A stretch of 63,846 nt of DNA, filler included, from Reclinomonas americana ATCC 50394 (GCA_048213135.1; 6 parts of 4 records of this genome joined end to end with filler, not necessarily neighbours in it), one strand, 5' to 3'. Counted from the first letter of the whole stretch, positions 1,853 through 61,264 are shown. Program-made: numbers and translations. The notes: generated by a model not told the origin, from the sequence alone.

Positions 1853-4800
1853 ATGCGGCCGGCAGCGCTTCTCCTCTTGGTGGTGGTGGTGGTGGTGCTC
1901 AGTGTGGGAGCACAGGGTGCAAATGTCACAGGTGAGTGGCTTGTGTGCGCGAGTGTGTGTGTGCGTGTGTGTGTGCTCACCCTCAACAACAACTGCTGAA
2001 AGGCACGGTCATCTCGTTTTCTCCGTTCCTCTCCGCCGGCTCCGCCAGCAGCAGCAGTAGCATCACAGTGACCGGTGTCAACCTGTACGACTCCACCGCC
2101 GGCGACAAGATCATCCTCAACCCGAGCACCACGCTTGCGCCGACGCCCGGCTGCACATTTGGTGGCACACAAGTGACGATCACCGACAGTGCCACGGCGC
2201 TCAACGGTGCCTCCGGCACCTCCACAGAGCACTATGGGAATCTGTCGACCCTCGCCACCGGCTTGTATCAGGTGTGCTACTTGTTCTCCACCGGGTCGGT
2301 GAGGTGCGTATCGGCGGCATTTAGATTGTGTGGTTTGATGAGTGTCTCCGTCGCTCATGTTCGATCTCCCGCCAGTCAAGTGGGGCAGGAGCTTCTGCGT
2401 GTGCCGACAGTGACAAGTTTCACGCCGACGACCATCCGTGCCAGTGACCCGGACGCCTTGATTATCGTGAGTGGCTCTGCGTTGCGAAACACCGATCAGG
2501 TGTTGATATCGACGGCGTCGTGCCCGACGACCTTGCCGCTGACTGGCACCGGCACGCTACTGCAAGGCACCATATACACGAATCCGCTGGAGGTGATCGA
2601 GGAGTGCATGTGCCTCGTTTCTCCTATCTCTCTTGCGTGTGGTCACTGACGCGTATGTGGACCGCAGACCCAACTGTACGCGACCTTTGGTGGCACGGGT
2701 CTGGCGGCGGGTGCCAGCTACAAGGTGTGCGTGATGTTCACCACGATTATCGGCTCGAAGGTTGCGTCGGCAGGCTACGTGACGCTGGGAGGCACACTGA
2801 CAGCCAGTGAGTGGTTTCTCGTTCTGTTTTTCCCCGTGTGTGGTGTCGCCCCCTCACATTTTCCTGTCTTAATGCAGCGGCGCCGGCCAGTCTAACGCTC
2901 ACCGCCATCACACCAAGCCGCATTCCCTTTATTGACCCAGGCGCCACACTGACCATTTCTGGCAGTGGCCTGAAAGCGCTTGATACGGTGGCATTCAGCA
3001 CCGTCAATACGTGCACGTCGGTCGTCACCGCCAGCGGTCCGCAGATCGAGTCATTCGACGGAGTTGCGGGATGCATCGCCATTTCGCACGTGTCTCTCTT
3101 TGCGCTCACGCTATGCGTTTCGGTTTCAGACCAACGGCCCCAACAAGATCCTGATTGTGACCCTCGGAGGTGCCGGTCTCAGTACGACCGGCACGTGGTT
3201 CGTGTGCTACACGCCGTACACGGTCAGCAGCGGCACCTACCTGTCATCCCATCCGTCGTTCTCTGTCGGTGTGTCGCCGGGTCTTGCGCACTGCACTGCC
3301 CTCGCAACTTTCTGCTTACTGCTTCCCGCGGCGCGCACAGTGTCGTACACGTCGTTCTCGCCCACGATGGTGTTGACCAACACGTCGACCATTACGCTCA
3401 CTGGCGTCGGCGGAACTACTGCCGACAAGGCATTTGCATTTGCAGGTTCATACTGCTTCTGCTTCCGCTCTGCTGTGCGCTGCTGATTGCACAGTCGCTG
3501 AGCAGGCTACGACTGTCCGCACGCCACCGATACCACGTTTACCACCTACAGCATCAATGCCTCCAGTGTTTTCACATTGACGACCACGGGCATGCCGGCC
3601 TCGGTTCCACGTGCGTGCGCGTGAGACTGTATGCACCCTCCTCGCCGTCGCTGAACGCTTCTGCTTGTTGTTGACAGCCACCGGTGGAGCTTACACGGTG
3701 TGCGTACTGGTGGGAGGCACAGTTGCCGGTGGCGTGCTCACCCTCGCACTCTGGAACAATGGTGCGGGCTACACTCGTACGGCTGGCACCTTCAGCTTGC
3801 TGGGTGGCTCCGGTTCCGGTGCCACGGCGACGCTGGCTGTGAGCTCGGGACTCTACACCACTGCCACAGTCAGCGTTGCGGGCGCCAACTACGTGTATGG
3901 TGACGTTCTCACCGTGTCGGACACGAATGGCGGAGCACAGTTCGTTGTGACTGCAACTACTTCTGGCAACAACTGGAGGAAGGTCGGCAACACTGCCAAC
4001 CCGCCAGTGCCACTTGCTCTCGGTGCGGGCGCTGTTGTTGTATGTTGCCAATTTGCTTGTAGCACCACTCTGACAGACTGTGTGTGTTGCTGCAGTGGGC
4101 ACGTTTCAACCTCGAAGCATTCCCGAGAGTGCATCGGTGACACTCACCATCACATACAACGCTCTGGCCAACTCCGACACCATCTCCCTCAGCTCGTCGA
4201 CTTCGTGCACGAGTCTCATTACCCTGTGCACCATTACCAACGCCTCCAACAATGTCGGTTTGTGCACCACCAACTCGATTGCGACTGCCAAGGCGTACTA
4301 CGTGTGCGCCACTGTGCCAACAAAGGGCTTGTATCCACTGAACGGGACCTATGATCCCCTCATTGTTGGCAAGTGTGGGGTGCGTGCCAAGAAGTGGTGT
4401 CCTTGTTTTGAGTGTGACCCCTTTCTCATGTGCTGAACACGTGTGCAGTGGTACAACACGAACTTCCGCCCCACCCAGTACAGCAACACGGTGCCCAACA
4501 TTCCATGGAAGGCGCAGACCAGTGGAGCGTGCGCCGGCGACACCACCATGTCCACCAATGGCTGCAGTTGGTTCGTCAGTGAGCGGAAGAGCACACACTT
4601 CTGCAGTGCCTTACACGTCAGTGTCAGGTGCGCGTACACGACGGTGAATCCGCTCGGCTACTTGCCTGTCAAGGCACAGATGACACAGCTGCGCGGCGTG
4701 TGTGTCAATGCTGCCGCCTCGTGCTCGGCGGCCAATCTCACCGCCACAATGGTGAACCACAAGAGCGGCGTGGATTTGACCTCCTGGCAGGTGAGTCCAT

Positions 4801-7044
4801 TGCGCTCGCCGTTGTGTCGCCCAGCGTGATTGCAACATCTCACGCCTCTGTCGCAGGACGCCGTCACGGTGTATCCACCGGTCAGTCTCTGTCACGGTCC
4901 ACTGACCATTCCTTTGGTTCGCTCACACGTCACCACACGCCACAGTACAATAAGAACCACGAGAACGGCGAGCAGGTGCTGGAGGAGGTGTTCCCCAACC
5001 GCTTTGCGTACTACAAGATCACACCGCAACATCGCTACTATGATCTGCACGTCATGGTGGCCACAAACGATTACCTCGGACTCGGAGACAATTTGGACCT
5101 GTACATTAGGCGCGGTTCACTGCCGACGCTCGCTTTCTTTGATTTCACCTCGATCCGGGAGAGCAACCCGTGGTCCATCGATGTCTATGCGGAGGATTTC
5201 AAGAGTGCGCACGCACTTTTCGCTTGACGCGTCTCCCCTCGTCTCATCTTGCATGTGTTTACAGCGAATGGACTGTGCACGTCCACTGGGTGCCAGACGT
5301 ACTACATTGGAGTGTATGGAGACAATCAGTTCCCACAAAGGAGCGGTGCCTCCCAGTTCCAGCTGCAAGTCTGGTTGGGTATGTTGTTGTCAGACGAACG
5401 CCGACATGGAATGCCAAGGAAGAGCTTGCTCATGCGCTCGCACGTGCAGACATGAACATTACCGACTTCAAGTGCGCCGATGCGACGGGTGCCGCTGCAG
5501 TCAGTGTCGGCACGCCATCCACCATGGTGACCGTCGGCAACTGTCTGCTCCTCAAGGATCGCACTGGCACCACGACGTTGCTACAGACGGTGGCCACCAG
5601 CACTGGATCGCAGGCTGCTCACTTGCCGGTGTCGGTGCGTTTGTGCTGCTGCCGCCCTCTGACCTCTCCGAGCTAAGCTGGGTGTGTCGCGTAGTTTGTG
5701 TTTGACGACATTACGCCGATGCCCAACCGAGTCATGCGACTCACACAGCAGAAAGCCGGCAGCGTGCTGCTGCTCACCGACAGACATCACCGCAGTGGCG
5801 TGTGGCATACCACCCCACTGTACCTGAAGATGGGTTTCGAGGTGCACTTTTCCTTCCGCATCCACAATCCGGGCATGTGCAATGGCCTGGATGGGTTCGT
5901 ATTCATCATCTACTCCGACTTCTTCATCTCTCTCTTTCTCCCTCACCACCACCACCACCACCACCACCACCATCGATGCAGGTTCTGTGCCGGTGGCGAC
6001 GGATTTGCGTTGGTTTTCCAAAAGGATATTACATCGACCAACAAGGGTGTGCTGCCGACGTCCTGGAGTGGCGCTGCCAGCAACACAGTGGGCAAGGGAC
6101 TCGGCTACGAGGGCATGAGCGACATTGTGGCCATCGAGTTTGACACTTGGGTAGGCGATTGACTGTCTAGCTCTGTCTGGTTTTTTCGCTACCAGCGCAC
6201 ACTCGCTCACTCGCTGTGAATCAAATCGCGCAGTTCTCCAAGGACTACTACGATCCAAAACAGGTGAGCCCACGGTCAGTGTCGCCCTCGTTTTCACGTG
6301 TGCACTGACTCGTACCGCCTGCGCGCCGCAGGGAATGGACAATTGGTGGATCAACGCCACCGAGTACGTCAGCTACGCCGACAATCATGTGGGAGGTTCG
6401 TACAGTCGCCCCCGTCATTATCCCTGCCGACTGCTCCGTTGCTGATTTCGCGCATGCTTCTCGATGCGGCGAGTGCAGTGTTTTCCTCCCTCTCGGGCAC
6501 GGCCATCTCTGCCGATCATTCGTCGACGAGCCATGTGACGTCGACTGCGTCGATCCCCAACATCTCCGACGGTCAAGTTCACACGGTGCAAGTGTGGTGC
6601 GTCGCAGTCTGTAGCCTGCGCCTGGGCCCGCAGAGGAGGAAGCACTCACTCCACGTGTGGGGCAGGTACATGCCGGCCATGTTTGGGCGTGCCGGAACCA
6701 TCACCGTGTTTATCGATAATATGCAATCGCCGGTGCTGGTGGCCAACCTCACCCTGGACTCGGCGTATTCGTGGCACCATTTACAGCAAAGAGTTTCGTG
6801 GAGGAGACGACTGCCCCACAAGAACAACTCGATTGCTGACACAAGATGTGTGCGTACAGGGCATCCTCAGTGGCACCGGCTTCGGGTACATGGGTTTCAC
6901 GGGTGCGGTCGGCGACGTCACACAAGACGTCGACATTCTCTCCTGGTCGTTCTGTTCCAAACAGTTGCGTGCACGCCCGTGGGAAGTGTTTCAACACGTG
7001 AACTCACTGTATGACTTGTGAGCAGTGGTTGTGTGGCGTACTAA
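1853..7044 (+). CDS. Large secreted protein: signal peptide, several Cys-containing IPT/Ig-like repeats, PSI-like, PPC-like and C-terminal L-type (legume-like) lectin domain; about 23 introns
   Basis: Signal peptide MRPAALLLLVVVVVVLSVGAQG. Repeats of the form TSFTPTTI..VSGS..D.V..C..Y.VC. PSI-like GCSWC..GVC. PPC-like DLYIRRGSLPT..YYIGVYG. Lectin motifs GGDGFALVFQ, VAIEFDTW, DNHVGV, DGQVHTV, GYMGFTG..ILSWSF. The last exon ends KHGCVAY* (TAA at 7042-7044). Confidence 0.85.
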
Positions 7045-7062
7045 GAAGATTGGGAGGTGTGG

Positions 7063-8798
7063 ATGGTGGTGAATGAAGAGAGTTTAAGGAACACCGTCCT
7101 GTGTCGTTTCACACGTCTAGTCGGCGCCGCCGTGATTGCTGCGACAATGGCCATGTTGTACTCGCCCGCATGGCAGCCAGTGTCACTGTTCATGGTCAAC
7201 TATGCCGGCAGTGTGGTCTTCACTGGACTCGTGGGATTTGTGCTGCTGCGCTGCTTGCATGCAATGGCTGCAACTGTCGCCTCGCCTCCCACGCGAAATG
7301 ACGAGCCGCTTAGCGTGCTCGCAGTGTGGCGCATGGGTGGAGGAGAGAAAACACTGCGTTCTGGTGCATTCGCCATCTTTGTGGCCACGGGTGCGCTGAT
7401 TGCTGTGTGGCCACACGCAATCATCCGCTTGTTTGACATTGATCATGCCGTGTCGCTGCTCTACAATGGCATCATGTACACGTTTGCGCTGTTGAAGGTG
7501 CTGGAGTTGTGTGTTGGCGCGCTGCCGATGCGCCTCACGTGGCCACCGCCGTCGGAGCAGAGCAGTGGTAGTTCGGCGCAGCCTGCACCACTCTTGCCAT
7601 CGTCATCATCCTCATCATCATCGACGACCAGCTTCAAGCTCGTTTCGAAACTGAGACCACCGACTGCGTCGGCGACGCCCACAGCCGCGTACCTGGCAAG
7701 GCAGCGCCCCGCACCCCGCATGCTCCCGTTCGTGGTGTACTACATCAGTATCATCGAGCCGCAGTTCCATCCACAGGATCGCAGCAAGGCACTGCGACCG
7801 GCGCCTCTCTCCTTGCTTTTCCGCAAGCTCGGTCTGTGCGTCCTCAAGGGCACCGCCAGTGTGTTCCTCATGTCAGTGGCGAGGCCGACGCACTACAACC
7901 CGTTCAACTGGTGGATTCTCAACAATACATTTCAGGTTTGGTGGCGTCACAATCACGAAGCACTCTGTGCAATGTGAGGAGTTGCTGAGGCGCGCACTTG
8001 TGTGTTGGCGAGAACAGGGCACCATCGTCTACTTTATGCTGTCCATGGTGATGGACATGGCGTCGGTGATCATGATTGGCATGACGTTTACACCCATGGA
8101 CTGCATGCGCAATCCGCTGCTGATGTCGACGTCGCCAGTGGACTTTTGGAGTCGTCGCTGGAATCTCATGGTGCACGGTGGGTTGTACACGTGCTCGCTC
8201 TCTCGTTACGCCCCCACATCGCCTGTTGCGTGCTTATGTGTGGTGGTGAATCGGCAGGCATGCTGAAGCGACTCGTGTTCGTGCCCGCTGTGCAATCCAC
8301 GTGGTTGCAGCGACTGGTGCCGTCGTCGGAGGGCGCGCGTCGTGTGCTGGCTGGCCTGCTGACGTTTTTGTGCAGTGCACTGATGCATGAGTACAGTTGC
8401 GTGGCGCCGCAGTTGATGCACACGTGAGGATTGGCGATGCTGACAAAACATCATTGTACGTAGTGTGGCAGATCGTGCTGTGGCGCTGCACCGAGTGCCG
8501 CTTCGGGCGTGTCGGCCTGTTCTTCCTGTTGCAGGGTGCATTCTGTTGCACACAGGGCATACTGAGCGCCATCGGCAACCACGGCAACAGCGTGCTGTCT
8601 CGTGCCATTCGCCGCTTTCAAGCGCTTCCTCCTCCACTCCGACGCCTGCTCGGCACGCTGACCACTGCTGCCCTGATTGCACCCACCGTGCACCTTTTTA
8701 CGGGTGACTTGATCCGTGGCGGAGTTCTCGATGGGTTCGCAGCGGTGCTACCGAGGTTAGAGTGGGTCAGTCTGGCCACGAGCGTCGTGAAGGAGTGA
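7063..8798 (+). CDS. MBOAT family membrane O-acyltransferase (wax synthase/MBOAT_2-like)
   Basis: Multiple hydrophobic segments. Motifs MRNPLLMSTSPVDFWSRRWNL, TFLCSALMHEY (catalytic His) and FFLLQG. Three introns. The start could alternatively be 7147. Confidence 0.88.
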
Positions 8799-8851
8799 AT
8801 GGAAAGGAAACTTCACGGTTGTCCCACCCGAGTTTGTCGAGATCATCCTCA

Positions 8852-9194: not shown

Positions 9195-11060
9195 TCAGTG
9201 GTCTGTCTTGGCCCATCCGGGGAGGGTGTGAGGCCAGTCGCGGCAGAGACCAAGGAACAGCCCGTGATCGCGGGCCTGTGATGCCACTGCTGAGTTCACA
9301 CACACATGCGCGCTTTCGAGAGACGGGTCGTACCTTCGCAACAGCGGCGGCCGCCTGACTGGAGGTCGACGTGAGGTAGCGCCAATCGCGTGCCGCCAGG
9401 GCGTCGTTGATGGTCAGCAGCACGGCGACGAGATCGTCAGCCGTCGAGCAGTGGCTGCGTGCGACAAGCTCGCTTTCGAAAATGTCATTGCGCAGGTTGG
9501 CTTCGTTGACGTGCGGCAGCCTGTGTGCGCGTGTCTGTGAGTAGCGGGGCGCAACGTGACGGGGGGTGGCAAGTGGGGCGACACACTTGCAGCGTTGGCT
9601 CTGTGAAAACATCTTCGGGAAGCGCTCGGACATTGTAGTCACGGCCGCCTCAATGATGCTCTTTTGCTCCGGTGCAATGGCGTCGGGCATGTCAATCTGT
9701 GCATGCGCGCGCGAGTGTATGTGTTTAAACGAGGGCGATCAATGGTGGACTGCCGACATGTGACGCGCACCTCCTTCACGGGCTGCGCCCTGTTGACCTC
9801 CAGGAACAGCTTCTTGATGTCGTGGTCGCTGGTCACCGGGTACACTTGCACTGTGGGGTGCGAGTCAGCAACTGGGTTTGCACGTACGCCTCTCTCGCGC
9901 GCTCTCCCGCTCTCGCATCTCACCGAGCACATCGCCAACGGGAGCCGAGGCGTGTCGCTCCTGGAGTAGCAGGCGGAGGGCGCCGATTCGGTGCTGGCCG
10001 TCCACGATGGCGCGCACCTGCAGCACCTCGTAGCGGTCGACGGAGCCACTGCCGCTCGCCTCTTCCGCGTCGCTGCGGATGGAGTAGTCGAACACCAGAA
10101 TGGAGCCGGGAAAGTGTGGGTCCTGGCGCTTATGCGCGGCGATTTGACGCAGTCGTGCCGGGTCGCAGCGACGCTGGCCGCACCACGGCGGCACCTCACG
10201 CAGCAAGCGCGTCGGATCGGAGCGGAATAGCAGGCAGCGACCCATGTCGGCCAGCAGGGTGCCGTAGATGGGGTGCTGCGTGCCGGGGGCCATCACAGAC
10301 ACTGGCAGTGTCTTGTTGGTGGCCGGTGTGGTGTCGGTCGCGGCCGGCGCCGGGCAGAAGCTGACACTGCGCTGACGGCTGCGTGCCGTGAGCAGTGGTC
10401 GCTGAGGTGCCGGCACGCTGGTGGCCATGGATTCCGCCGGCGGTGTTGCGGTAGCCGTCGTGGGGATGGCACATGTCGACGCACTGTCGTCGGTGTGGAT
10501 CGCGGGCGCCGGAACGATTGTTGTTGTCGACACGTGGCTCGGCCCGTGTACACCGCTGGCCTGCTGACGGCGTGTGCGAATGCGAGGGATAGGAGTGCGC
10601 GGCAGCATGTGCGCCGGCGCAAAGACCTGGTCCGCATCGACGTCGACGAACGAGTGGCTTTCGTCGTCGGTGGCGGCACTGGCGACCGATGAGTCGCTGT
10701 CGGTCGCACGCGACGTGTCGTGGGCGTCTGTGACATTGGCGAGTGAGCGTGTTAGACAGAGGTGCGTGGAATTGAGCGGAACTCACCGACAGAGGCCGAG
10801 CTGTCCAGCAGGAGCTCCTTCAGGTCCAACTCGCCGAGTTCTGCCGTCAACTCGTGGAACAGCAGCGCGTCATCCATGCTCGGCTGCACCGCATCGTCTC
10901 CGGTGTCTGCTTTCCCGACCAGCAGTGTGTCGGTGATGCTGGCGTCGGCGCTGGCACGACGACGGCGGCGGCGAGGGCGGTTTCGAGGAGGCTGCGTCGG
11001 AGCTAGCGCTGGCATGTGGCTGTCGACCGGAGACTTGGTGGTGTGCCGGCGTCGGGCCAT
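9195..11060 (-). CDS. DGQHR/ParB-Srx-like domain protein with a low-complexity N-terminus; 5 introns
   Basis: Motifs WCGQRRCDPARLRQI, PGSILVF, IVDGQHR, KKLFLEVNRAQPVKEIDMP, PHVNEANLRNDIF and KARDHGLFLGL. All introns are GT-AG and frame-consistent. Confidence 0.8.
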
Positions 11061-11200: not shown

Positions 11201-14200
11201 ATGGTGGGAAACATGGAGCAAGTGACCGTTACAAGGGACGCAACACACACCCCAACACCGCCTCCTTCTGCTGCGGCACGCCAGCGGCTGGCATTGTCAG
11301 AGTTTGTGCGGCAAACGCCGATCGAAGACCCTCACGAGTGGGCCGCGACGGCTCATCGAGATTGGCAGGCTGAATGGACTCCATCTGGTTTCCCTTTCTC
11401 TCTCACACACAACAACAACAACAAGCAAAGGGGAAACGGTCACTTTCGTCCTTGTGTAAACAAAAACTCGAGTTGTCTCGACGTCGGAAAATCAATCAAT
11501 CATCCCGTCATCCCATCAAATAGGGCGCATTCCCGTCGCCACACACAATGACGAGCAGTGTGTGGTCGTGCGTGTGTCTCCACGATGATCCTCTGGCACA
11601 CCACACGTGAGCACAAGCGCAGCGCATTCACCATCTCGCTTCTCTGACACAATTTCAGCAGTGTGCATCGACTCTATGTGGAGTGGCTGGTGCAGCAGTG
11701 GTCTGCACGCGCACCACAGCGTGCGGCACTGCGCAAGGCCATGATGGATCGACATGCATCGCAAGGGGTGGGAGCGCACACAATGTGATGTGCATTTGTG
11801 TGTGTGTGCGTGTGAGATTGATTGACTCGATTGTTGCGATGCAGTTGCCGCCGAGTGGATCGCGACTCGCGCCGACGTGGTTTCTCGCAGAAGAGCGCTT
11901 GTGGCGCGGTGTTGATGCACTACTGGAGGACTTTAGTGGGGAGATGCCGCATGTGAACACTAAGGGGCGCTCGTGGAGACGACAATGGCGAAACGGTGCG
12001 CGAGTGGAATGGCTAGCGCGTCTCCGACTGCTGCTTCCCGTGCTGGAACGTGCGGAGATGGTGGCCTCATTGGTGCACGCGGTGGCTCCGAAAGACAGTG
12101 AGGAGCCATCGTCGGCGGCCTCGGCACTGCTGGTGCGGGCGCATTCGGCTGTGCGTGAGCACGTTCGGGAGCACTTGTCGACGGTGAACGTACGATCTGC
12201 GTTGCGAGATGCATTTGCGGCATTGTTGTTGTCTGTGGAGTCGCGAGAGGTGGTGACGGTGGATCGCAAAGAGCAAGGAGACAAGGGAGATCGACAATGG
12301 TTGTTGTGGGCTCGATGGTTTCAGTGGCGACGGCAGCGGCGGCGACGTCGACAGTGGTTGATGCACACGGAGGCGCGATGGTCGGCAATCGACGACATTC
12401 GTCGCCTTGAGCGTCTGGCGACCGCTCGACTAGACCCGTCGTCGTCGTGGTTGACTGTCGTGTTCTTTCGTTGTTGGGTGTGCCACGTGAGTCGCGTGGA
12501 GCAGCAGTACCCTCCGCTACCACCATTATCGCCTGCATCGCCCCTGTTGGAATCGACGGGTTCTCCCGTGGCCGACGCGCTGCGTTCCGGCGACTGGTCA
12601 TCATTTGGCAGCGGCGCAGTGTTGTGTGCGTGGCGAGGAGTACGTCGAGCAGTCGCCACGTATCCCGATCGCGCCCAGTGGATTACGCCGGCACTCGCAG
12701 CTGCGCTTCGTGCATCTGGTCGAAGCGAATCGCGTCCGTTTGTGCAGCATGTCGTGGCGTGGTACTTGCAACAAGCGCAGTTGGCACGGCGCAAGGAGCT
12801 GGCCGAAATCGGTGCGTGTCAACCGATGGCTGTGCTCCTTCTGCGCCGCTCACATTGTCTGTGTGTGCTCGTAGAGTTTGTGCGCCAGTTTCGCGCCCTC
12901 TTGCTGCAACTACGCGACGCTGTGCATCGTAGCCTCGAGGACTGGCGCTCGGTGGAAGAGGACCTCGGTGTGGACGGAGGCTCGGCAGGCGAAATCACCC
13001 ATTCCAACTTGCTGCGTGAGCAGGTGCGCGCCTTGGAGTGGTACTCGCACGCGCTGGAGCGGGAGTGCATAGAGCGAGAGCAGCTGGCACGCGACGCCCT
13101 GCGTGTGGTGGCCGAGTTGCCAGTTCGGCTGTGTACCACGTTGCGCAGCGCTGGATCGCCGACGACATGTTGGCGCTGTTGCTGACGTGAAGATTGATTG
13201 CACGCAGTGGTGAATGTCGCACAGCGCTTGAGTGTCTGCGCAAGCATGTCGACGAGCCCCTGACGCTCGCCGTGTGCCTGTGCTCGGATTACCTGCCAGA
13301 CTACCTGGCCGTTCTTGTGCCGGCCATGTTCCGTCGCCGCGGTGCTGCCTGGAGTTGCGTCCTGCTATAGGCGCACGCCTGACATGTGTTCACCATCCAA
13401 CCGTCCTCGCCACAGGTCAGCAGTTTGGTGGACACGACGAGATGAACGCAGGGTACACATGCATACACAGTCGTCCGTTTCTTGATTGTTTCGCTCATCT
13501 CGTTTGTGTGTGCGGTAGGTTTCCACTCAACCTTCCGCTGGCGGTGCATGACGCGGTGGCCACTGTCCTTCGCCACCGTGTGGCATCCTCAGGAGCCAAC
13601 TTGCTCCTGCTCGAGGAGTCGCTGATGAACACGAGGTACGCGCCGCAAGTGTGCGCGTCACTGTGAGGTGATTTCCATTTTTTCATCTGAGCTGCAGATT
13701 TGACGAGTGGCTCCGAGAGCTAGACAACGTCGGCACGGGCGCTCGAACAAACGTGGACACGCGGGAGGCTGTGACAGTGTTTCTGTTGCGTTCCACGCAG
13801 TTCGCGGTGCTCATGCACCTGTTTCTTCCCCCCAAAACACTGACTGTGTCGAGTCAGGTTTGAGTTTCTCTGCTCAGCTCTGCCACAACTTTGGCAGACG
13901 GATTTCCACTTTCTGGTGTCGATGCCGACCCACGAACTGCTCGTGGTCAATCGGGTCTTGTTGCGTCGGAGGCAACTGCCAGCTTTTGTCGCCTGCGTGT
14001 GGTGGCTGACAAAAGCATGCGTCGCAGGAGTCACATGGCGAGTGTGGACAACCTCGGTCGCCCACTGCATTCCCTGTGGCACATGTTTTCGGAGAAGAAG
14101 CTGCTGTCCGAGGTCCTTCTCGAGTTGCGTCACCAGCAGGTACTTTATGGTGGCCTCCAGCAACAGTGATTCTCACCGAGTGCATGTCGCAGAAACGAAC

Positions 14201-42017: not shown

Positions 42018-42052
<35 letters not shown>

Positions 42053-46900: not shown

Positions 46901-48021
46901 GGTGAGAGAGACAACAACAGCACGATACCGTCGTTGCGAGGGCGCGCACTGATAATCATGGGTACCACTCCCGTCTCTCGCACAGTGTGGAAAGAGTGGA
47001 CGAGACTGGATGGCCGACAGCAGCAAGAATGGAAGGCGGTGGAAAAGAGGTATGCACTGAGGTTCTCTCCCCAAGGCTGGACGGCCCTCGCCACCTCACA
47101 TCGCTTGAATCGATGCAGATGTGCCGATGCCGTGCACGTGTTTGACAAACCAGTCAATGAGCTGTGTTCGGAGGTGGAAAGCGAGCGGCTGGATGTGGTC
47201 AGCAGGTTAGCCGAGGCCGCCACAGAACGTCTGGAATTGGAGCAGGAGTGCGCCGAGCTGCGTGCACGCCTCGCTCGCCAAGAGGCTCGGCTGCAAGCTG
47301 TACAAGTGTCGGAAGAGGTCCGTTGCTGACTCTTTTCGTCATTCTGTCTTTCTCTCTCACACACACTCTCATGCGTGTGGTGCCAGACCTTGCGCTCGCT
47401 GGCCGGCTCTAGCGTGCTTCGTGCGGAAATGACTCCGTCCCTGTCCGCTGAAGACGTGGAGCAACGGCGGCTTCTCGTTGATCGACTGAGTCGCGTGCCG
47501 GCATCCTTTCAAGGCGCCGTGCAGCGAGTTGCGTGGATTTGCCCCTGTTGCTTCTCACTGAAACAAGGAACTGACCCTGTGTCGCGAGTACAGATGGTTG
47601 TCGGACCGGCGAATGAGTGGCTCGACGAGTGGCGCGATACACCGCGGCCGGAGATGATGTCGCAGCTGTGGAATCACTTGGACGCGCTTGTGGGCGAAGC
47701 CGGCGCTCTTCACGTGCAGCTGACACGCCAGACGACGATTGCGGCAACTAGCGATCTCGACGACGCCGGAAAACTCGTCTTGCAGCAGCGATTGCGGAGT
47801 GTTGCGTGCTATCTTTCCAGCTAGTTTCATTCGATTGCTGCTCCCTTCTCATCGATCTTCGGTCGCAGATTGCCAGTCGACTAAATCGCCTGCACACACA
47901 CGTGTACCAGGTGGGCCGACTGCTGGGCGAAGACGACGACTCCGTGGCCGAAATGCTCTCCATGCGACGCCGATCCGCAGTGGCCGACGCCAATGGCAGA
48001 TTACCCGGCGGCAATCCGTGA
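43986..48021 (+). CDS. Kelch-repeat / FN3-like / coiled-coil protein; 5' end truncated
   Basis: Kelch repeats PSPRYGHTAVLV..VWGGWD, PPERAYHVAV..WGG and ARDGHSLT..LFGGHDG. FN3-like segments SDLGPGEHSFRLEA and ENLVPAQNYVTRV. Helical C-terminus. Contains a GC-AG intron at 45752-45813. Confidence 0.82.
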
Positions 48022-48198
48022 AAATCGCGCAGCAATGAAAAATCGTGGTCATTCGCCAATCTTGTCGAGGCGCAACACGACAGCCGGTGATACACCATGC
48101 GAGCCGTCCCATGTGCACCGGCGAAAGTTGGGCAGCGCCGATCCAATGATGCGTTCCAGAAGACCATCGGAGCTGCATGACGGTGGTGAGGCACAGTG

Positions 48199-51100
48199 CT
48201 AATGTCTCACATGCACGAAGATATTGCATCGCAACCTTTCCACTGGGCACGCCTCGCCGCTGCGACCAAACACAATCGGGTCCTTCACAACAGTCGGCTT
48301 GAACATGACCGGCTGTTTGCGCAACGGGCGACTGGCACGGCCCTCCTCCGCTTCGACCGGAGCCGCCGGCGCCATCTCCTGCTCGCGCGCGTGCTGCAAC
48401 TGCACCTCGGCCACCACGGCAGCCGCCTCCAGCGACCACATGCGCAGGGAGCTGTCGGTGCCGCCACACAACACAGAGCGACCGTCTGGCGTGACGGCGA
48501 GCGCCGAGACGCGGCCAAATGTCGACACGTCAAAGTGGCACACCTCCATGTCGGTCTGCAGACTCCACACACTCAGCGACTGCGAATCACCGCCGACCAC
48601 CACGAATCGTCCGTCAGGCGGCGTGATGGCCAAGGCACGCACACGCATGGTCGGCGGCAGCATAAGGCACTTGACCTCCCGACCGGACTCCAGATGCCAC
48701 ACACGGAGGGTCTTGTCCCCACCGCCACTGACTGCGTGCACACCGTCGGGCGTGCAAACCACGGCCCCGACCCACTCGGTGTGACCCGTCAGCACCTTGC
48801 TGCTCGTCACAGATGGCTTGTCCACGCAAAAGTCCCACACACGCACGGTGCGGTCCCAACTGCAGCTCACAATGCACGAGTTCTTCGGGCCGACAGCTAC
48901 GCCGCTCACGGAGAGCGAGTGGCTCGTCATGGTGGACACCAGGGCTCCCGCTTCATGCAAATCCCACAGTCGAACGGTGCAGTCGGCGGCGCCAGTCACC
49001 GCGTAGCGCCCGTCGGCACTCACCGCGACCGTCGTCACGTCGTTCTCGTGTCCACTCAACTCGCACTCGGCCGCGCCCCGTGCCACATTCCACACGTCCA
49101 CTTGCCGATGCTTGCTGACGCTCAGAAGGCGCTGGCCATCGGGCGTCACGGCTAGCGCTCGAACAGGGCGCGTTCCGGTCGAGAGGTGCGCGACTGCACG
49201 ACGCGTGCTCAACGACCACGCAATCAGCAGGCCGTCATCGCCGCCACTGACTGCATGCAGTCCGTCAGGCATGGCCACCGTCGCTCGCACCGCCTTGCGA
49301 TGCCCGACCAGCCTCTTGGTGGACAGTGTGGTTGTCTCGACAAACAGTGGAGGAAGATGCAAAGCAGAAGCCGCCGCATCAAACACAGCAGTCGACGCAC
49401 TACCAGCTGCTGCTGACCCACTGTCGTGTCTTTCGCGAGTTGCCACCGTTGTAGCAGCAGCTGCGGGCGGAGAAGTGCAGTCGTCTGCTGGCGCAGGCAA
49501 GATCCACACGCGAAGTGTGCGGTCGTTGCCACCGCTAATGGCGCGGAGGCCATCGCTCGTCACCGCCACCGAATACACAGCTCCGGTGTGTCCCGACAGT
49601 CGCGAGACCACCTCGGCTTCGCATTCTGCGACCGGCTCGCCACTGTCGGTGATCGCCGACGAAAACGAGAGGCGCCACAGCAACAGAGTGTCGTCGTCGC
49701 CAGCCGTGAGGAAGCGTCGCGAGTCGGGAGTGAGGCACACACAGTTGACGCCGTTGGTGTGGGGAGCACGCACGCAATGCACCTGTTGTCCGTGGGCCAG
49801 AGACCACACTCGCACGGTGCAGTCTTTGGCGCCGCTGAGGAGGTGCTGCCCGTCGGACGTCACCACCAGGCTCATCACGTTGCCGGTGTGGCCCTCCAGC
49901 ACCCACAACGGTTGCACGGCAGCGTCACCAGAGTCCACGGCCGCGTCGTCAGATTCGTCGACATGTCGGAGAACATGCTCTTGAGCAGCCTGTGTGGGCC
50001 ACGCCCGGATAAGCTTGTCGTCGCCGGCCGAAAGCAGCAGCTTGCCGTCGGGAGTGGCCACCAGGGTTTCGACGCGGCCCTCGTGACTGCGCATGCAACA
50101 GTGCCGTACGGCCTCCGGCTGCGGGACGTCCTCCAGCTGCCCGAACGACAACGAGGAGCGCACGTGACCCAAGTGAGCCGACGGCATGGCCCACATGCGA
50201 ACAGTGCCATCGGCTGCGGCACTGGCCACAAAGCGGTCATTGTCCAGCAAACACAGCGCCGTGACGGGTTGCCGATGGCCGGAGAACACACGAACGGGGC
50301 GCGACGACAAGTGTGACCACAGCACCAGGTAGTTGTCCCAGCCGCCACTGACGAGCAGCCGATTGTCCGCCGTGGCCACAAGCGCCTTGATGCCGTCGAC
50401 GGCGGTCGCATGCATGCGGAAGACCTTGACTTCCTCGCCCGACGGCAGGTACCACACGCGCATGGTGGCGTCGTTGGAACAGGTGGCGAGGAAACGGCCC
50501 GGTAACGTGATAATTCCGTTGACGTTGCGCTCGTGGCCCTCCAGGCGGCGGACCTCTTCGCCGGTGGCAAGCACCCACACTCGAGCCGTTCGGTCCTTGC
50601 TGCCACTGACAATGTGCAGACTATCGGGCGTGATGGTGACGGCTTGCACCTCATCCGTGTGACCCTCGAAACGATGCACGACTTCGCCCGTAGCCAGTGA
50701 CCAGACCCACACCGTGCGGTCGTTGCCGCCACACACCACATGCCGCCCATCCGGTGTCACCGACACGGAGCGCACGGCATGTCTCTCGCCTTTGAGCTCA
50801 ATGTGCGACAAGCCATCGGCGATCGAGTACACGTACACCAAACGATTGCCGCCGCCAAACACCACGTTCCGGCAGTCGGGGGTAAAGGCGACCGACAGCA
50901 CAAAGCGCTTGTCAGCAGTGGGAATTCGGCGCACCACCTCTCCGGTCTCCACTGACCAGATGCACACATGACCGTCACTGCCACCCGAGACCAAATGTTG
51001 CACGTCTGGCGAGAAAGCTGCGCTCGTGACGATGCTCTCATGCGCCACTGCCTGCCATCGCAGGGCTCCATCGAGAAGCTGCCACACGCGGAGCGTCGAA

Positions 51101-55962: not shown

Positions 55963-56058
55963 GACTACGTATGTCAAGATTTGTTCCGGGCGGGACTTGC
56001 ATGACACAAACGTGCACGTGACTTCCAGAAGTTCATGCTCATCTTCTCATTCTTTATT

Positions 56059-58564: not shown

Positions 58565-58723
58565 TGCCCTGTGGCTCACCGAGGGAGCACGAGGGGTGAA
58601 GGAAGGACGAGATGACTGCGTGCAGGACGCGAAGTGCAATAGGAACGACTTCTCAAGCGGAGCTATGCATGCCCGGATACGAGCAGTGTTCTTTATAGAT
58701 CTGAGAGAGAATGCCAGTTGCTG

Positions 58724-61264
58724 TCAGGCATCATGGTCCGCATCTGGCAGCTCCGGGTGGAACTTGCGCACCGTTTCCCACATGGCCACTGTGAGCTGCT
58801 GGTTGGTATGGTGACGAGCAGACAGTACTGCGTGCTTACGAACCACGCAAGTCGCGAACGCCCAGCTCGTGAATTGCAGCTTCGAACAAGAACTCTTCAT
58901 CGAGTCCTTCCGGGGGCCGTGCGGGTTGCTTTTTTTACAGCAGATGGCAGTGCACGGTGAGAGAGTGAAGGCTCCCACGACGCAGCAACTTGTCACACGC
59001 AACATCGTGCACGTCCACCACCAGCTGTCGGATGGGGTTGAAATAGGCATGGTCCAGCACCTCTTCCAGCGAGCACCGGTCATCCGGGATGAACTGCCAA
59101 CAGGTGAGCATGTATGGCCGGTGATACAGCTTCTCTCTCTGCTCTCACGCCTCTCACCTTGAGAATTTTTCCGATCAGGTCCAGTGCTGTTGGAGAACGT
59201 GAGTGCCACGAACAGGAGAAGCAGCGTGCCGCCGATCATGCACACACCGTCAGCAGGGCAACCAGGCAGCAACTCTGGCCAACCGGGAGGCACGCAGATG
59301 GGTCGGCGGCGGAACCAGCTGCCCATGGCCTCGGCATACTCGCCCTGCGTACTGCCGATGATCCATTCCCTCATCCTCTCATCGAAGCCGACCTTGCGCA
59401 TGATCTCGAGGATTTGGTGGGTCTCTGCATGCAACACGCTGAGCAGGGTGCACACGAGGAGGGAAACCTTGTCCCTCACCTGTTTGGCCGTCCAGCACCG
59501 GTTCGTATACGTCGTAATCTGCAGTCGCAATCGTGCGCGGCTATTGAGACGCACACGACACCTCGCGGGATAAACAAACTGAGAGAAGACAAGGCAAACC
59601 TGTGTCTGGTCTGCGCTGCGCAACGAATGCCACGGTGAGCCAAGTGAGTGGAAGACCATGGAGTGATTGAGAGAGTACTCACAACCAGCTTCTCAAAGTT
59701 GTACATGCGCGCGAGAATGCAGCCTGAAACGGTCAAGTGAGCACGAAGAGATCGTCACACACCGAAAAGAGAAAGAAAAAGACGCACCGTAGCTCCACAA
59801 GTCGAGTGCGGGAAAGAAGGAGAAAAATAGAAAGCAGTGTCAGCAGTTGAGATCATTGCAAGGGAGGGCGCTTGCTAGTCACATATCTCGGTGGTCGTAG
59901 GGCGCTCGCGCAAGAACCTCCGGAGCACCTGTACATGGGTGTGACGATGACATTCTCTGATCGGGCGACAACGCATTGACAACGCAACGGTAGGTCAATG
60001 TTTGTACGAGCGGTGTGTGTTTGTCGCCGGCGCCTGGGTTCTCGAGCATCATGCGTGACAAACCGAGGTCGCACACCTGTCAACCACGTTGAGGAGTGGA
60101 CCAGACGGCGGCACACACCCGTCGTGTTCCGGCTAGCTCACCTTGGCGCCAAGCTTCCCATCATCCCGCGTGAACAGCAGGACATTCTTTGCCGTACTGC
60201 ACACAGCGGCTGGTGAGCGCACCGAGCACATGACAGTGCTTTCCGTGACCAGCAGTCACGCAACAGATCACGGTGGAGAATGTTGGCGTCGCGCAGATAC
60301 TGCAGCGCCTTGGCCATGTCGTACATGATCAGACGCCGGTTTGTCTCGCTGCGATCGTCACTTGCTGGACCAAGGCAGTGAGGACCCATCGAACTGCAGG
60401 CGCGAGCCATCTGAGGTTGAAAGGAGACGACGGTGGTGGTGCACAGGGACGCAACGCCTCCAGTGAACCGCCGTCGACCAGCTCCGTGATAATGTAGACC
60501 TCCTGGAAATCCGCAAAGCGTGGACTTGGCGGTTTGAGGTCGAGCAAGCGCATGATCTGTGAACATTACAAGGGTGAGGCAGTGGCGATGGGTGCGAGAG
60601 TGGAGACCGACGACGCAACATTCGGGTGGAATACACGTGACAACAGTCGAAGCTCACGGAGCAGGCTGCAGAAGCGACATGAGGGCGATGGGGGGCGATG
60701 AGGTGAGGCATGGAAGATGAGTAGCTACCGTTGGACGTAGACTTTGGCACACTGGTGACTGTCGCACATGTCAGCGTCAACACGAGAGACAGGCAGACAT
60801 ACGGAGAGAGACGAAACTCCAAACGAAGAGACACACGCTAGAGGGGTCAAAGCCACATTCGTCAGTGACTATACCAACGCCTGACAGCAGAGAGAAGCCT
60901 CACCTTGACAGCCACCTCCAGCCTGCCATCATGTTCGGAAAAAATGCAAGACAACTGAGCGCCAGGAAAAGTCAGGAGACGAAGGTAGAAAGAGCATCAG
61001 ACCTAGCTCTTCGGCACTGTCCATCTGTGCGTGTGAAGAAGAGTGGTGAGAGAGAGAGACAGGAAGAGATAATGTCAGATGCGATCGTTTCTCATGATCA
61101 TCGATGGTATTCAAGCAAGCAATCGCTGCGTAACACTGCATCGCACGCACCCACAGTCAGTCAACGCAGATGCATCACCACTGGCCACACAACGCAACTG
61201 CTCCGCCACCGAGGAAACCTTCCTCAGTCATGTCGACAACACATTGAGCACCCACTGGCCACTC
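58724..61264 (-). CDS. Atypical CMGC (MAPK/CDK-like) Ser/Thr protein kinase; 5' end in an N gap; about 15 introns including a 1-nt exon and an AT-AC intron
   Basis: Spliced motifs FLGGGAYGQC, EVAVK, RLLRELRLL..HPNIMRLLD, FQEVYIITEL, ILHRDLTAKNVLL, KVCDLGLSR, VQTLTYRAPEV, VDLWSYGCI, ALDLIGKILKFIPDDR..LDHAYF, and a MAPK-like tail FLFE..KFHPE. Confidence 0.9.

What the first reader, a model, noticed from the sequence alone, without database searches (positions are those of the whole stretch)
3063..61198. A second, abundant class of 5' splice site: one-nucleotide-shifted H|GTTGCG(T) donors that never follow an exonic G
Seen in sequence: besides ordinary donors (GTGCGT, GTGAGT, GTGTGT, GTTCGT, GTACGT, usually after exonic G), about 34 introns give a coherent protein when spliced at GTTGCG (mostly GTTGCGT), the commonest donor with an extra T at +3 that moves the conserved G from +5 to +6. 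Plus-strand donors: 3063, 6964, 8396, 13354 (ambiguous), 13785, 13960, 14124, 24941, 25518, 26854, 33305, 34487, 36096, 39308, 42460, 42872, 44148, 46674, 46774, 47528, 47801. Minus-strand donors: 16709, 17167, 19289, 21064, 21307, 24275, 56981, 59003, 59988, 60264, 60455, 60619, 61198. The -1 base is A, T or C in all of them and G in none. Shifted versions of the other donor flavours also occur: GTTGAG (8964+, 20943-), GTTACG (44739+, 61134-) and GTTTCG (6793+). They occur on every gene-rich scaffold. Established knowledge: in mammals, rare atypical sites of the form ACA/GUUAAGU are recognised by U1 snRNA in a +1 shifted register. Inference: this organism uses that shifted register as a mainstream strategy (roughly one in five introns by my manual estimate), with intron +1 G substituting for the missing -1 G. 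This may involve a variant U1 or U6 ACAGA-box or a relaxed Prp8/U5 proofreading step.
Basis: partly seen in the sequence, partly recalled or inferred. Interest (0 to 1): 0.95.

Follow-up and report, generated by a model that had tools for sequence, protein, structure and literature searches.

The report
Second splice-donor class: W|GTTGCGT
About one in five introns on these eukaryotic scaffolds seems to begin with GTTGCGT, the usual GTGCGT signal pushed one base inward, and these introns almost never follow an exon-final G, so this organism could be a natural test case for how the spliceosome finds intron starts.

Summary
All 34 listed sites carry GTTGCG and none follows a G. GTTGCGT occurs 48 times against 14.4 expected. 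It is the GT hexamer most tied to a downstream branch+CAG module. A gene finder trained only on this window, started without a donor model and never shown exon bases, called 152 introns: 29 GTTGCG (19%), 22 GTGCGT, 15 GTGTGT, 12 GTGAGT. On the reversed window it called 1 intron. The last exon base is G in 1 of 29 GTTGCG introns and in 80 of 123 others (p=3e-10). Conserved kinase motifs fix the cut just before GTTGCG at three junctions.

A one-base shifted U1 register fits the missing -1 G and the T-only extra base. But a standard U1 5' end would barely pair with GUUGCGU. Other donor flavours are hardly ever shifted. The A/T preference at -1 is unexplained.

No RNA reads, whole genome or snRNA gene were available, so splicing and mechanism remain inferred. 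Verdict: a new variant of a known kind, with about 0.9 confidence that the donors are real and about 0.5 for the mechanism.

The parts
3063..3129 (+). class-2 intron, A|GTTGCGG...CAG, 67 nt, IPT/TIG-repeat gene
   Evidence: finder; strong 3' module and frames agree
6964..7025 (+). candidate class-2 intron, A|GTTGCGT...CAG, 62 nt
   Evidence: reader only; strong 3' module; frames not consistent; the finder ends the gene at a stop at 7021
8396..8463 (+). class-2 intron, A|GTTGCGT...TAG, 68 nt, MBOAT-like gene, directly after ...SALMHEY
   Evidence: finder; upstream exon matches the MBOAT profile up to its last residue, weakly (E 0.03, below the cut-off); frames agree
9203..9342 (-). class-2-like intron, T|GTTGCGA...CAG, 140 nt
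   Evidence: finder; strong 3' module; followed by a 7-nt exon in the model, so uncertain
13785..13877 (+). class-2 intron, T|GTTGCGT...CAG, 93 nt (acceptor could instead be at 13857)
   Evidence: finder
13960..14027 (+). class-2 intron, T|GTTGCGT...GGCTGAC...CAG, 68 nt
   Evidence: reader only; strong 3' module and frames agree; the finder reads through with another upstream acceptor
14124..14192 (+). class-2 intron, A|GTTGCGT...CAG, 69 nt
   Evidence: found even by the donor-agnostic passes
16615..16709 (-). class-2 intron, A|GTTGCGT...CAG, 95 nt
   Evidence: finder
17091..17167 (-). class-2 intron, A|GTTGCGT...TAG, 77 nt
   Evidence: donor-agnostic pass
19215..19289 (-). candidate class-2 intron, T|GTTGCGT...CAG, 75 nt, phase 0, stop-free
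   Evidence: reader only; strong 3' module; the finder reads through because the length is 3n and there is no stop
20998..21064 (-). class-2 intron, T|GTTGCGT...CAG, 67 nt
   Evidence: finder
21240..21307 (-). class-2 intron, A|GTTGCGT...CAG, 68 nt
   Evidence: finder; best 3' score of all, 11.0
24215..24275 (-). class-2 intron, A|GTTGCGT...CAG, 61 nt
   Evidence: finder
24941..25011 (+). class-2 intron, T|GTTGCGT...TAG, 71 nt
   Evidence: finder
25518..25579 (+). candidate class-2 intron, A|GTTGCGT...CAG, 62 nt
   Evidence: reader only; strong 3' module; shares the acceptor 25579/25580 that the finder pairs with another donor
26854..26930 (+). class-2 donor T|GTTGCGT; 3' end uncertain (model uses GAG)
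   Evidence: finder; weak 3' module
33305..33376 (+). class-2 intron, A|GTTGCGC...CAG, 72 nt, between the WD40 and fn3 parts of a large gene
   Evidence: finder
34487..34550 (+). class-2 intron, A|GTTGCGT...CTAAC...CAG, 64 nt
   Evidence: donor-agnostic passes; frames agree
36096..36159 (+). class-2 donor C|GTTGCGT, 64 nt in the model; weakly supported
   Evidence: finder; weak 3' module, frames not consistent
39308..39368 (+). class-2 intron, T|GTTGCGT...CAG, 61 nt, inside the RasGEF_N motif
   Evidence: finder; downstream exon starts at RasGEF_N profile position 25 and the 24-residue upstream exon fills positions 1-24
42460..42615 (+). class-2 donor T|GTTGCGT; 3' end uncertain; weakly supported
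   Evidence: finder; weak 3' module
42872..42927 (+). class-2 intron, A|GTTGCGT...CAG, 56 nt, before a dsRBD exon
   Evidence: finder
44148..44211 (+). class-2 intron, T|GTTGCGT...CAG, 64 nt, in a Kelch repeat (..YTLDT|S..MDPMMW)
   Evidence: finder; Kelch profile runs to the exon end and resumes in the next exon
46674..46751 (+). doubtful class-2 donor A|GTTGCGT
   Evidence: reader only; weak 3' module; would leave a 22-nt exon before 46774
46774..46840 (+). class-2 intron, C|GTTGCGT...CAG, 67 nt
   Evidence: finder
47528..47593 (+). class-2 intron, A|GTTGCGT...ACTGAC...CAG, 66 nt
   Evidence: finder
47801..47868 (+). class-2 intron, T|GTTGCGT...CAG, 68 nt
   Evidence: finder
48173..48235 (-). 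doubtful: G|GTTGCGA...CAG, 63 nt, at the end of a 1025-codon WD40 ORF; the only finder call with G at -1
   Evidence: finder only; it skips the ORF's own stop codon
56917..56981 (-). class-2 intron, T|GTTGCGT...ACTGAC...CAG, 65 nt
   Evidence: finder
   Evidence: finder; 3' score 8.1
58929..59003 (-). class-2 donor T|GTTGCGT near the kinase gene's 3' end; 3' end uncertain (AAG)
   Evidence: finder; weak 3' module
59929..59988 (-). class-2 intron, C|GTTGCGT...CAG, 60 nt, splits the codon of R in ..TLTY-R-APEVL of a CMGC-type kinase
   Evidence: sequence and translation; a cut 1 or 2 nt away destroys YRAPE; not called by the finder
60197..60264 (-). class-2 intron, T|GTTGCGT...CAG, 68 nt, splits HRDL|TAKN of the kinase catalytic loop
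   Evidence: finder; exon aligns to MAPK6 residues 119-144, ending at ..LHRD, E 0.0017; Pkinase profile 96-123
60349..60455 (-). class-2 intron, C|GTTGCGT...CAG, 107 nt, kinase ..ELVDGGSLE|AETNRRLIMY..
   Evidence: finder; frames agree
60557..60619 (-). class-2 intron, T|GTTGCGT...CAG, 63 nt, splits HPN|IMRLLD of the kinase
   Evidence: reader only; next exon aligns to MAPK11 residues 90-115 (IGLLDV..), all 51 hits MAP kinases, best E 0.19
61126..61198 (-). candidate class-2 donor A|GTTGCGT upstream of the kinase's likely ATG; 3' end uncertain (73 or 174 nt)
   Evidence: reader only; may lie in a 5' UTR

Best explanation
These are genuine U2-type GT-AG introns of one intron-rich eukaryote. Median intron length is 68 nt, the branch is CTCAC/CTGAC about 20 nt before a CAG.

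The organism has two 5' splice-site classes. The ordinary class is G|GTGCGT, G|GTGTGT or G|GTGAGT. The second class is (A/T)|GTTGCGT and makes up about a fifth of introns. In it the cut is directly before GTTGCG, and the conserved GCGT core sits one base further into the intron.

Most likely (inferred, not shown) U1 snRNA reads these sites one base out of register. Intron G+1 pairs where exon G-1 normally pairs (C9), U+2 faces C8 unpaired, and U+3 and GCGU pair as +2 and +3 to +6 do in ordinary donors. The GU requirement of the catalytic steps then fixes the cut. Because one pair is lost, every other position must be optimal, which would explain why only the GCGT flavour is used.

Shown here: the motif, its abundance, its link to normal intron 3' halves, the reading-frame and kinase-motif evidence for the cut position, and the exclusion of G at -1.

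Inferred: any snRNA pairing. My confidence that the donors are real and cut before GTTGCG is about 0.9. My confidence in the shifted-U1 mechanism is about 0.5.
For: Motif excess: 48 against 14.4 and 106 against 66.5.

Link to 3' halves: 37 of 106 GTTGCG sites have a downstream branch+YAG module, against 16.6% of all GT sites. 29 of 48 GTTGCGT sites have a top-15% 3' score, against 28 of 90 GTGCGT sites.

Frame test: a cut at shift 0, +1 or +2 is consistent in 23, 10 and 13 of 39 GTTGCGT sites. GTGCGT gives 24, 16 and 13 of 56. Control motifs are flat near 25%.

It called 29 GTTGCG among 152 introns, and 18 of 71 in the stricter subset. On the reversed window it called 1 intron and used 0 of 49 GTTGCG sites.

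Cut position: HPN|IMRLLD, HRDL|TAKN and TY-R-APE in a MAP-kinase-like gene. RasGEF_N is continuous across 39308.

The -1 base: G in 1 of 29 against 80 of 123, p=3e-10. Of 71 introns after a non-G exon end, 28 use GTTGCG; of 81 after G, 1 does. In phase-0 class-2 introns the third codon base is A or T in 11 of 12, against 29% in coding sequence overall (p=1e-5).

Same machinery: branch motif, branch-to-3'ss distance (19 against 21 nt), CAG acceptor, length (68 against 68 nt) and GC content do not differ between the classes.

Shift rather than bulge: no G at -1, and the extra base is only T.
Against: No RNA evidence: no run could be listed.

The gene models are my own, trained on 60 kb.

With the standard U1 5' end the shifted duplex is almost nil, -2.5 kcal/mol with A at -1 and -0.6 with U or C. 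GUUGAGU would pair better at -6.9, yet it is used once.

A shift predicts that the class-2 -1 base resembles the ordinary -2 base. It does not (p=0.003). T is as common as A although only A could pair with U10, and G, which could wobble, is missing.

Against the background of non-donor GTTGCG sites (G in 15 of 69), the G depletion alone is modest: 1 of 37, binomial p=0.02 for 1 of 29.
Confidence: 0.55

Rival explanations
1. The donors are real, but they are read in register by a co-evolved or second U1 snRNA. One version is a 5' end with GC instead of UU at positions 5-6; another adds A instead of C at position 8, which would pair perfectly with GUUGCGU. In that case there is no shifted register on a standard U1.
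For: A standard U1 ranks GUGAGU (-10.5) above GUGCGU (-6.1) and GUGUGU (-6.0). The observed use is 12, 22 and 15. A hypothetical U1 with GC at positions 5-6 gives -8.3, -14.0 and -12.1, which is the observed order, and gives -10.4 for A|GUUGCGU. A version that also has A at position 8 gives -14.7. The near-absolute need for C at +5 in class 2 (29 of 29) asks for a partner that a standard U1 lacks. For Ostreococcus, which shares the GTGCGTG consensus, Irimia and Roy raised the idea of snRNA changes (PMC2483917, passage seen).
Against: The U1 5' end is almost invariant across eukaryotes (established knowledge, recalled). C at +4 may only reflect GC bias. The variants are my own constructs and none was seen. 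The 3' halves of the two classes are identical, so there is no sign of a separate machinery. A U1 with A at position 8 would not explain why G at -1 is avoided.
Confidence: 0.22
2. The donors are real and are read by the same U1 in the normal register with one U (+2 or +3) bulged out. This is the bulge +2/+3 register described for human sites.
For: This register has been experimentally verified in human cells (PMC4856993, passages seen). It also places GCGU opposite the same U1 bases as in ordinary donors.
Against: In this register the -1 base faces C9, so G should be favoured as in ordinary donors (45 of 65). It is 1 of 29. A +3 bulge should accept any base, but only T is used (25 of 48 GTTGCGT sites against 1 of 44 for the three other bases). 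For the hypothetical U1 with GC at positions 5-6, the bulged fold is the predicted optimum only when -1 is G, which is exactly the case the genome avoids.
Confidence: 0.1
3. These are not donors at all. GTTGCGT is enriched for another reason, such as a coding or repeat motif, and the introns are artefacts of hand or model splicing.
For: There are no RNA data. The finder's donor model was learned from its own predictions, so some lock-in is possible. About 15 of 48 GTTGCGT sites are clearly not donors, for example 2761, which is inside an exon, and 35232-, which is antisense.
Against: The excess over expectation (48 - 14.4 = about 34) equals the number of proposed donors. The link to 3' modules needs no gene model. 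GTTGCG already tied for the top place in the donor-agnostic pass, 6 of 71 against 7 for GTGCGT. Kinase motifs are restored only by these cuts. The reversed window gave 1 intron. The flanks vary, with no conservation beyond +7.
Confidence: 0.05
4. Class 2 marks a young family of inserted introns (introner-like elements) that carry their own donor and land after A or T.
For: The lengths are uniform (most 61-77 nt) and the donor is invariant. An A/T preference at the insertion side could be a target-site preference.
Against: Information content drops to at most 0.18 bits from +8 on, as in ordinary introns. The length distribution and 3' halves equal those of class 1.
Confidence: 0.03

Closest known systems
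Shifted (+1) U1 base-pairing register at atypical human 5' splice sites (cited as ref. 10 in PMC4856993; I saw only passages of that paper, and recall the original report)
   Same: The GU is cut as usual, while the intronic consensus lies one base further in and there is no G at -1 or +5. G+1 would pair with C9.
   Different: In humans it is a rarity. All validated non-canonical registers together account for 1.5% of 201,541 sites. Here it would be about 19% of introns and the commonest single donor heptamer. The sequence is GUUGCGU, which a standard U1 barely pairs with, not GUUAAGU. The A/T rule at -1 is not part of the human description.
Bulge +2/+3 register of 5'ss/U1 helices (PMC4856993, passages seen)
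   Same: It has one extra U between GU and the paired core.
   Different: It predicts G at -1 and tolerance for other bulged bases. Neither is seen here.
GTGCGT / CTGAC introns of Mamiellophyceae: Micromonas (PMC3879977) and Ostreococcus (PMC2483917); passages only
   Same: The ordinary class here has the same AG|GTGCGT(G)-type donor and a CTGAC-type branch, in a GC-rich genome.
   Different: The passages I saw mention no GTTGCGT class. The genes here (RasGEF, IPT/TIG, fn3, many WD40) do not look algal. The lineage is unknown.
U12-type (minor) introns
   Same: They are a second, rigid, longer 5' splice-site motif alongside the major one.
   Different: The U12 consensus is ATATCCTT/GTATCCTT with a TCCTTAAC branch (recalled). 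Class 2 has the same branch and acceptor as class 1.

Membership tests
U2-type GT-AG spliceosomal introns | GT at the 5' end, AG at the 3' end, and a branch motif shortly upstream of the AG | tested here: met
   All 29 finder introns of class 2 start with GT and end with AG (CAG 23, TAG 4, GAG 1, AAG 1). The branch is CTCAC in 15 and CTGAC in 7, at a median of 21 nt from the 3' end.
U2-type GT-AG spliceosomal introns | Removal restores a continuous, homologous reading frame | tested here: met
   Frame test 23 of 39 at shift 0 against 10 and 13. Kinase motifs HPN|I, HRDL|, Y-R-APE. RasGEF_N across 39308.
U2-type GT-AG spliceosomal introns | Spliced junctions observed in RNA | not testable with these tools
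   No RNA holder was listed, so read laying could not be used.
Shifted-register 5' splice sites | The site lacks G at -1 and at +5, and matches the species' consensus when slid by one base | tested here: met
   G at -1 in 1 of 29. +5 is C in 29 of 29. +4 to +7 is GCGT, against +3 to +6 GCGT in the commonest ordinary donor.
Shifted-register 5' splice sites | Markedly better pairing to the U1 5' end in the shifted register than in the canonical one | tested here: inconclusive
   With the standard U1 5' end the shifted fold is the optimum only for A at -1, and only at -2.5 kcal/mol. With U or C at -1 there is no real duplex. The organism's own U1 is unknown.
Shifted-register 5' splice sites | Rescue by suppressor U1 designed for the shifted register but not for the canonical one | not testable with these tools
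   This is an experiment. The organism is not identified.
Bulge +2/+3 register | The -1 base faces C9, so G at -1 is favoured as in canonical sites | tested here: not met
   G at -1 in 1 of 29 against 45 of 65 in GTDNGT donors.
U12-type introns | A 5' RTATCCTT motif and a TCCTTAAC branch close to the 3' end | tested here: not met
   The donor is GTTGCGT. The branch and distance are the same as in class 1. The consensus itself is recalled.
Introner-like elements | Introns alignable to one another beyond the splice signals | tested here: not met
   Per-column information is at most 0.18 bits from +8 to +16. Only 5'-anchored columns were examined, not full alignments.

The most novel reading that the evidence does not exclude
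The organism carries a changed or second U1-type snRNA, possibly with a matching change in how U6 docks, whose 5' end is complementary to GUUGCGU. A fifth of its introns would then be served by a distinct 5' splice-site decoder inside the major spliceosome. This would be a lineage-specific re-coding of intron starts, not an occasional slip of register.
Probability: 0.15. Interest if true: 0.85.

Novelty: new variant of a known kind. Interest (0 to 1): 0.65.

Why it matters
Non-canonical U1 registers are known from a small share of human sites and matter for disease variants and splice-switching drugs. No organism is known to me, or was found in five text searches, in which such a site is a main class.

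If confirmed, this lineage offers hundreds to thousands of natural shifted donors. Their rules are sharp: T-only insertion, GCGT-only core, A or T at -1, no G at -1. That would make several questions testable:
- how U1, U6 and U5 share the task of fixing the cut;
- whether the U1 5' end can co-evolve with its sites;
- why the last exon base and the register are coupled.

In practice, gene finders that use fixed-position donor matrices will mis-score about one intron in five in this genome.

Tried and rejected
RNA evidence: no RNA holder was listed for window 33000-42999, so read laying was never used.

Whole genome: none is held.

snRNA genes: Rfam found nothing at gathering scores. At E up to 5 it found only three chance-level hits, none an snRNA.

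Relatives:
- The RasGEF exon found one remote protein (23% identity, named Pelomyxa schiedti by its source) among longer proteins.
- It found none of similar length.
- It found no locus in metagenome contigs.
- The Atlas gave only generic RasGEF clusters.
- The lineage therefore stays unknown, and orthologous intron positions could not be compared.

PDB look-ups: exons of 20 and 29 residues and the downstream MBOAT exon gave no hits. The upstream MBOAT exon gave only two chance-level hits.

Early methods: my first gene finders, with codon usage only, were too weak and produced many spurious long introns. Frame tests with hard thresholds had little power.

Readings rejected:
- A cut at the second GT (GTTGC|GT). 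It is equivalent to shift +2, which is not favoured, and it breaks the kinase motifs.
- Introner family.
- U12-type introns.
- G-preceded GTTGCGT sites as hidden donors. 2761 is exon-internal. 55274- is out of frame with every acceptor, and the neighbouring G|GTACGG fits. 35232- and 57909+ are antisense to genes. 61279- lies at an intron 3' end.

A scan for a hypothetical U1 variant in metagenomes was considered and dropped, because a hit could not be tied to this organism.

Full report
What the window is. The 63,846 bases are six scaffolds joined by N44-TTAATTAATTAA-N44 spacers: 1-16255, 16356-27704, 27805-43547, 43648-51232, 51333-62336 and 62437-63846. There are further N runs inside them, and GC is about 0.59. 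The sequence is eukaryotic and intron-rich. Short introns end in a CTCAC/CTGAC branch about 20 nt before a CAG. Pfam finds WD40, RasGEF, Kelch, IPT/TIG, fn3 and protein-kinase pieces, plus sub-threshold dsRBD and MBOAT matches. No whole genome is held, no RNA run was listed, and no snRNA lies in the window.

The motif is there and is not chance. Every one of the 34 listed coordinates carries GTTGCG, 32 of them GTTGCGT. The preceding base is A 17, T 13, C 4, G 0. GTTGCG occurs 106 times on both strands, against 66.5 (sd 7.9) in 100 dinucleotide-preserving shuffles, none of which reached 106. GTTGCGT occurs 48 times against 14.4 under a third-order Markov model, the highest ratio of any non-repeat GT heptamer. 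The excess of about 34 equals the number of proposed donors.

Evidence that needs no gene model. A strict CT[ACG]AC..YAG module ends 45-130 nt downstream of 37 of 106 GTTGCG sites, against 1381 of 8315 for all GT sites (16.6%; p=4e-6). That is the strongest association of any hexamer, ahead of GTGCGT at 27 of 90. With learned 3' matrices and a top-15% threshold, 29 of 48 GTTGCGT sites pass, against 28 of 90 GTGCGT, 11 of 63 GTGAGT and 10 of 57 GTTGCG[ACG]. Strand calls from coding potential alone put 28 GTTGCGT in sense and 12 in antisense, with 8 undetermined. GTGCGT gives 51 and 24.

Reading frame. For each site I asked whether the independently best frames of the 90 nt on either side agree when the cut is placed at the G, or 1 or 2 nt later, using the same set of acceptors.
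- GTTGCGT: 23, 10 and 13 of 39.
- GTGCGT: 24, 16 and 13 of 56.
- GTGAGT: 13, 6 and 4 of 35.
- Control motifs (GTC, GTGG, GTTG[ACT], GTGC[ACT]) are flat near 25%.
The cut is therefore before GTTGCG, not 1 nt in, and not at the second GT, which is equivalent to shift 2. Because several acceptors are tried per site, the background is 25% and the test is noisy. Earlier versions with hard thresholds had little power.

Gene models.
- Method. I wrote a dynamic-programming gene finder with a three-periodic second-order coding model, which picks the correct one of six frames in 131 of 158 held-out 90-nt windows. The donor model (+3 to +8, first-order), the acceptor and branch matrices and the coding tables were then re-estimated from its own output. 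Exon bases never entered the donor model. Codon-usage-only versions were too weak, but even the donor-agnostic one already had GTTGCG at 6 and GTGCGT at 7 of 71 introns, the top two.
- Result. The final models hold 26 genes and 152 introns: GTTGCG 29 (19%), GTGCGT 22, GTGTGT 15, GTGAGT 12, and many rarer forms, some surely false. On the reversed window the same models intron and use 0 of 49 GTTGCG sites. In a stricter subset (50-110 nt, strong 3' module, length not a multiple of 3) there are 71 introns, 18 of them GTTGCG.
The finder recovers 26 of the 34 GTTGCG sites and 1 of the 5 variant-flavour sites. It adds 9342-, 57597- and a doubtful 48235-.
- Per-site support. 27 of 34 have a strong 3' module. 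The weak ones are 26854, 36096, 42460, 46674 and 59003. 8964 gives a stop in the spliced product.
- Where they lie. Class-2 introns are on five of six scaffolds, 5-7 each. The sixth scaffold is 1.4 kb and has no model.

Exact cut position from homology. A gene on the minus strand of scaffold 5 encodes a MAP-kinase/CDK-like kinase.
- The exon ending at 60265 aligns to MAPK6 residues 119-144 and ends in ..ANILHRD (E 0.0017; Pkinase profile 96-123). Splicing T|GTTGCGT at 60264 to the CAG at 60197 gives HRDL-TAKNVLL. A cut 1 nt later gives HRDL-YGKECP.
- The exon starting at 60556 aligns to MAPK11 residues 90-115 (IGLLDV..). The best E is only 0.19, but all 51 hits are MAP kinases. The preceding exon ends ..RVFHPN at 60620, so the junction HPN|IMRLLD mirrors the kinase HEN-V-IGLLD.
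- At 59988 the codon C|GT is split and gives ..TLTY-R-APEVL.
- At 39308 the downstream exon starts at RasGEF_N profile position 25 (E 1.5e-8), and the 24-residue upstream exon (..AQLIEHLTQHNAH) fills the first 24 positions.
- Searches with the other short exons found nothing or only chance-level hits.

The base before the cut.
- In the finder's set the last exon base is G in 45 of 65 GTDNGT donors and in 80 of 123 non-GTTGCG donors overall. It is G in 1 of 29 GTTGCG donors (A 12, T 13, C 3). Fisher p=3e-10.
- In the strict subset it is 0 of 18 against 35 of 53, p=4e-7.
- Seen the other way, 28 of the 71 introns that follow a non-G use GTTGCG, and 1 of the 81 that follow G does.
- The one exception, 48235-, lacks T at +7 and skips the natural stop of a 1025-codon ORF.
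- None of the five G-preceded GTTGCGT sites in the window is a supported donor.
- Two cautions apply. Non-donor GTTGCG sites have G at -1 in only 15 of 69, so against that background the depletion is modest: 1 of 37 in the union of both lists, and p=0.02 for 1 of 29. The real rule also looks like 'A or T'. In phase-0 class-2 introns the third codon base is A or T in 11 of 12, against 29% in predicted coding sequence (p=1e-5).

What it is not.
- Conservation stops at +7. Information is at most 0.18 bits from +8 to +16, as in class 1, so this is not an introner family.
- Branch motif, branch distance (21 against 19 nt), acceptor, length (68 against 68 nt) and GC content do not differ between the classes (all p>0.1). 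The same U2-type 3' recognition therefore serves both, and the donor is unlike the recalled U12 consensus.

Mechanism. GTTGCGT is G|GTGCGT with its second G replaced by T and the cut moved one base upstream. Equivalently, it is GTGCGT with a T inserted after GT.
- Shift rather than bulge. Two features favour a shifted register (G+1 on C9, U+2 unpaired opposite C8, U+3 on A7, GCGU as usual) over a bulged U in the normal register. First, G at -1, which the bulged form would reward, is avoided. Second, the extra base is only T: 25 of 48 GTTGCGT sites are used, against 1 of 23 GTGGCGT, 0 of 18 GTCGCGT and 0 of 3 GTAGCGT.
- Three results do not fit a plain shift on a standard U1. (i) With the U1 5' end printed in PMC4856993, duplex energies are -6.1 for G|GUGCGU and -10.5 for G|GUGAGU, but only -2.5, -0.6 and -0.6 for A, U and C before GUUGCGU. 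A|GUUGAGU would give -6.9 (one search gave the same picture). (ii) Shifted versions of the other flavours are almost absent: GTTGAG 1 and GTTGTG 1, against 12 GTGAGT and 15 GTGTGT. (iii) The class-2 -1 base differs from the class-1 -2 base (p=0.003).
- A purely hypothetical U1 with GC at positions 5-6 would reproduce the observed order GUGCGU > GUGUGU > GUGAGU. It would make the shifted fold the optimum for A|GUUGCGU (-10.4) and would switch to a bulged fold when -1 is G. That offers one reason why G at -1 might be selected against, namely competition from a non-productive register. This is speculation. No U1 was seen.

Comparison with what is known.
- Shifted and bulged U1 registers are established for human sites. 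The passages I read give 1.5% of 201,541 human sites for all validated non-canonical registers, and 68 predicted (54 curated) for bulge +2/+3 (PMC4856993).
- Ordinary GTGCGT donors with CTGAC branches are described for Micromonas and Ostreococcus (PMC3879977 and PMC2483917, passages only).
- Five full-text searches found no paper that names GTTGCG(T)/GUUGCG(U) as a splice site, and none that reports a lineage with an abundant shifted class.
- The library lacks most subscription journals and cannot read figures or logos, so this is weak evidence of absence.

Limits. All gene structure rests on 60 kb, on my own self-trained models and on a few conserved motifs. There is no RNA, no snRNA and no relative. 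The lineage is unknown. The only related protein found was a 23%-identical RasGEF that its source names Pelomyxa schiedti.

Verdict. The shifted-register reading is the best available, but it is incomplete. The finding is a new variant of a known kind, and it is worth testing with RNA-seq and the organism's snRNA genes.

Noticed in passing
59806-59886, minus strand (kinase gene): The exon ending ..APEVLARAPYDHR and the exon starting DLWSYG cannot be joined in frame by any GT-AG or GC-AG intron. Of 304 frame-keeping, stop-free cuts, the only known class is AT-AC. An 81-nt intron ATATGTGACT...TTTCCCGCAC gives YDHRVDLWSYG. Its 5' end is not the recalled U12 consensus ATATCCTT.
   Followed up: partly
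44148 and 44739, plus strand (Kelch-repeat gene): Introns at the same point of two consecutive Kelch repeats (..YTLDT| and ..WELDL|) use T|GTTGCGT and G|GTTACGC. This may be a case of paralogous positions with different donor forms. The finder did not call 44739.
   Followed up: partly
19215-19289, minus strand: A candidate GTTGCGT intron of 75 nt in phase 0 has no in-frame stop, so retention would add 25 residues without breaking the frame. The finder reads through it.
   Followed up: no
whole window; spacers at 16256-16355, 27705-27804, 43548-43647, 51233-51332, 62337-62436: The window is a concatenation of six scaffolds with artificial N44-TTAATTAATTAA-N44 joints. Features must not be read across them.
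   Followed up: yes
1796-7021, plus strand: A gene model with 22 introns encodes repeated IPT/TIG-like units and a sub-threshold legume-lectin-like end. Homologous intron positions in two repeats carry G|GTGATC (2593) and A|GTTGCGG (3063).
   Followed up: partly
whole window: (GT)n/(CA)n and (CT)n/(GA)n microsatellites are the commonest heptamers; GTGTGTG occurs 174 times against 55 expected. GTGTGT runs often abut introns, which makes GTGTGT donor calls less certain than the others.
   Followed up: no
39562-40734, plus strand (RasGEF exon): A 391-residue RasGEF exon has no relative of similar length in the 5.8-billion-protein collection and only one remote longer one. The lineage appears poorly sampled.
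   Followed up: partly
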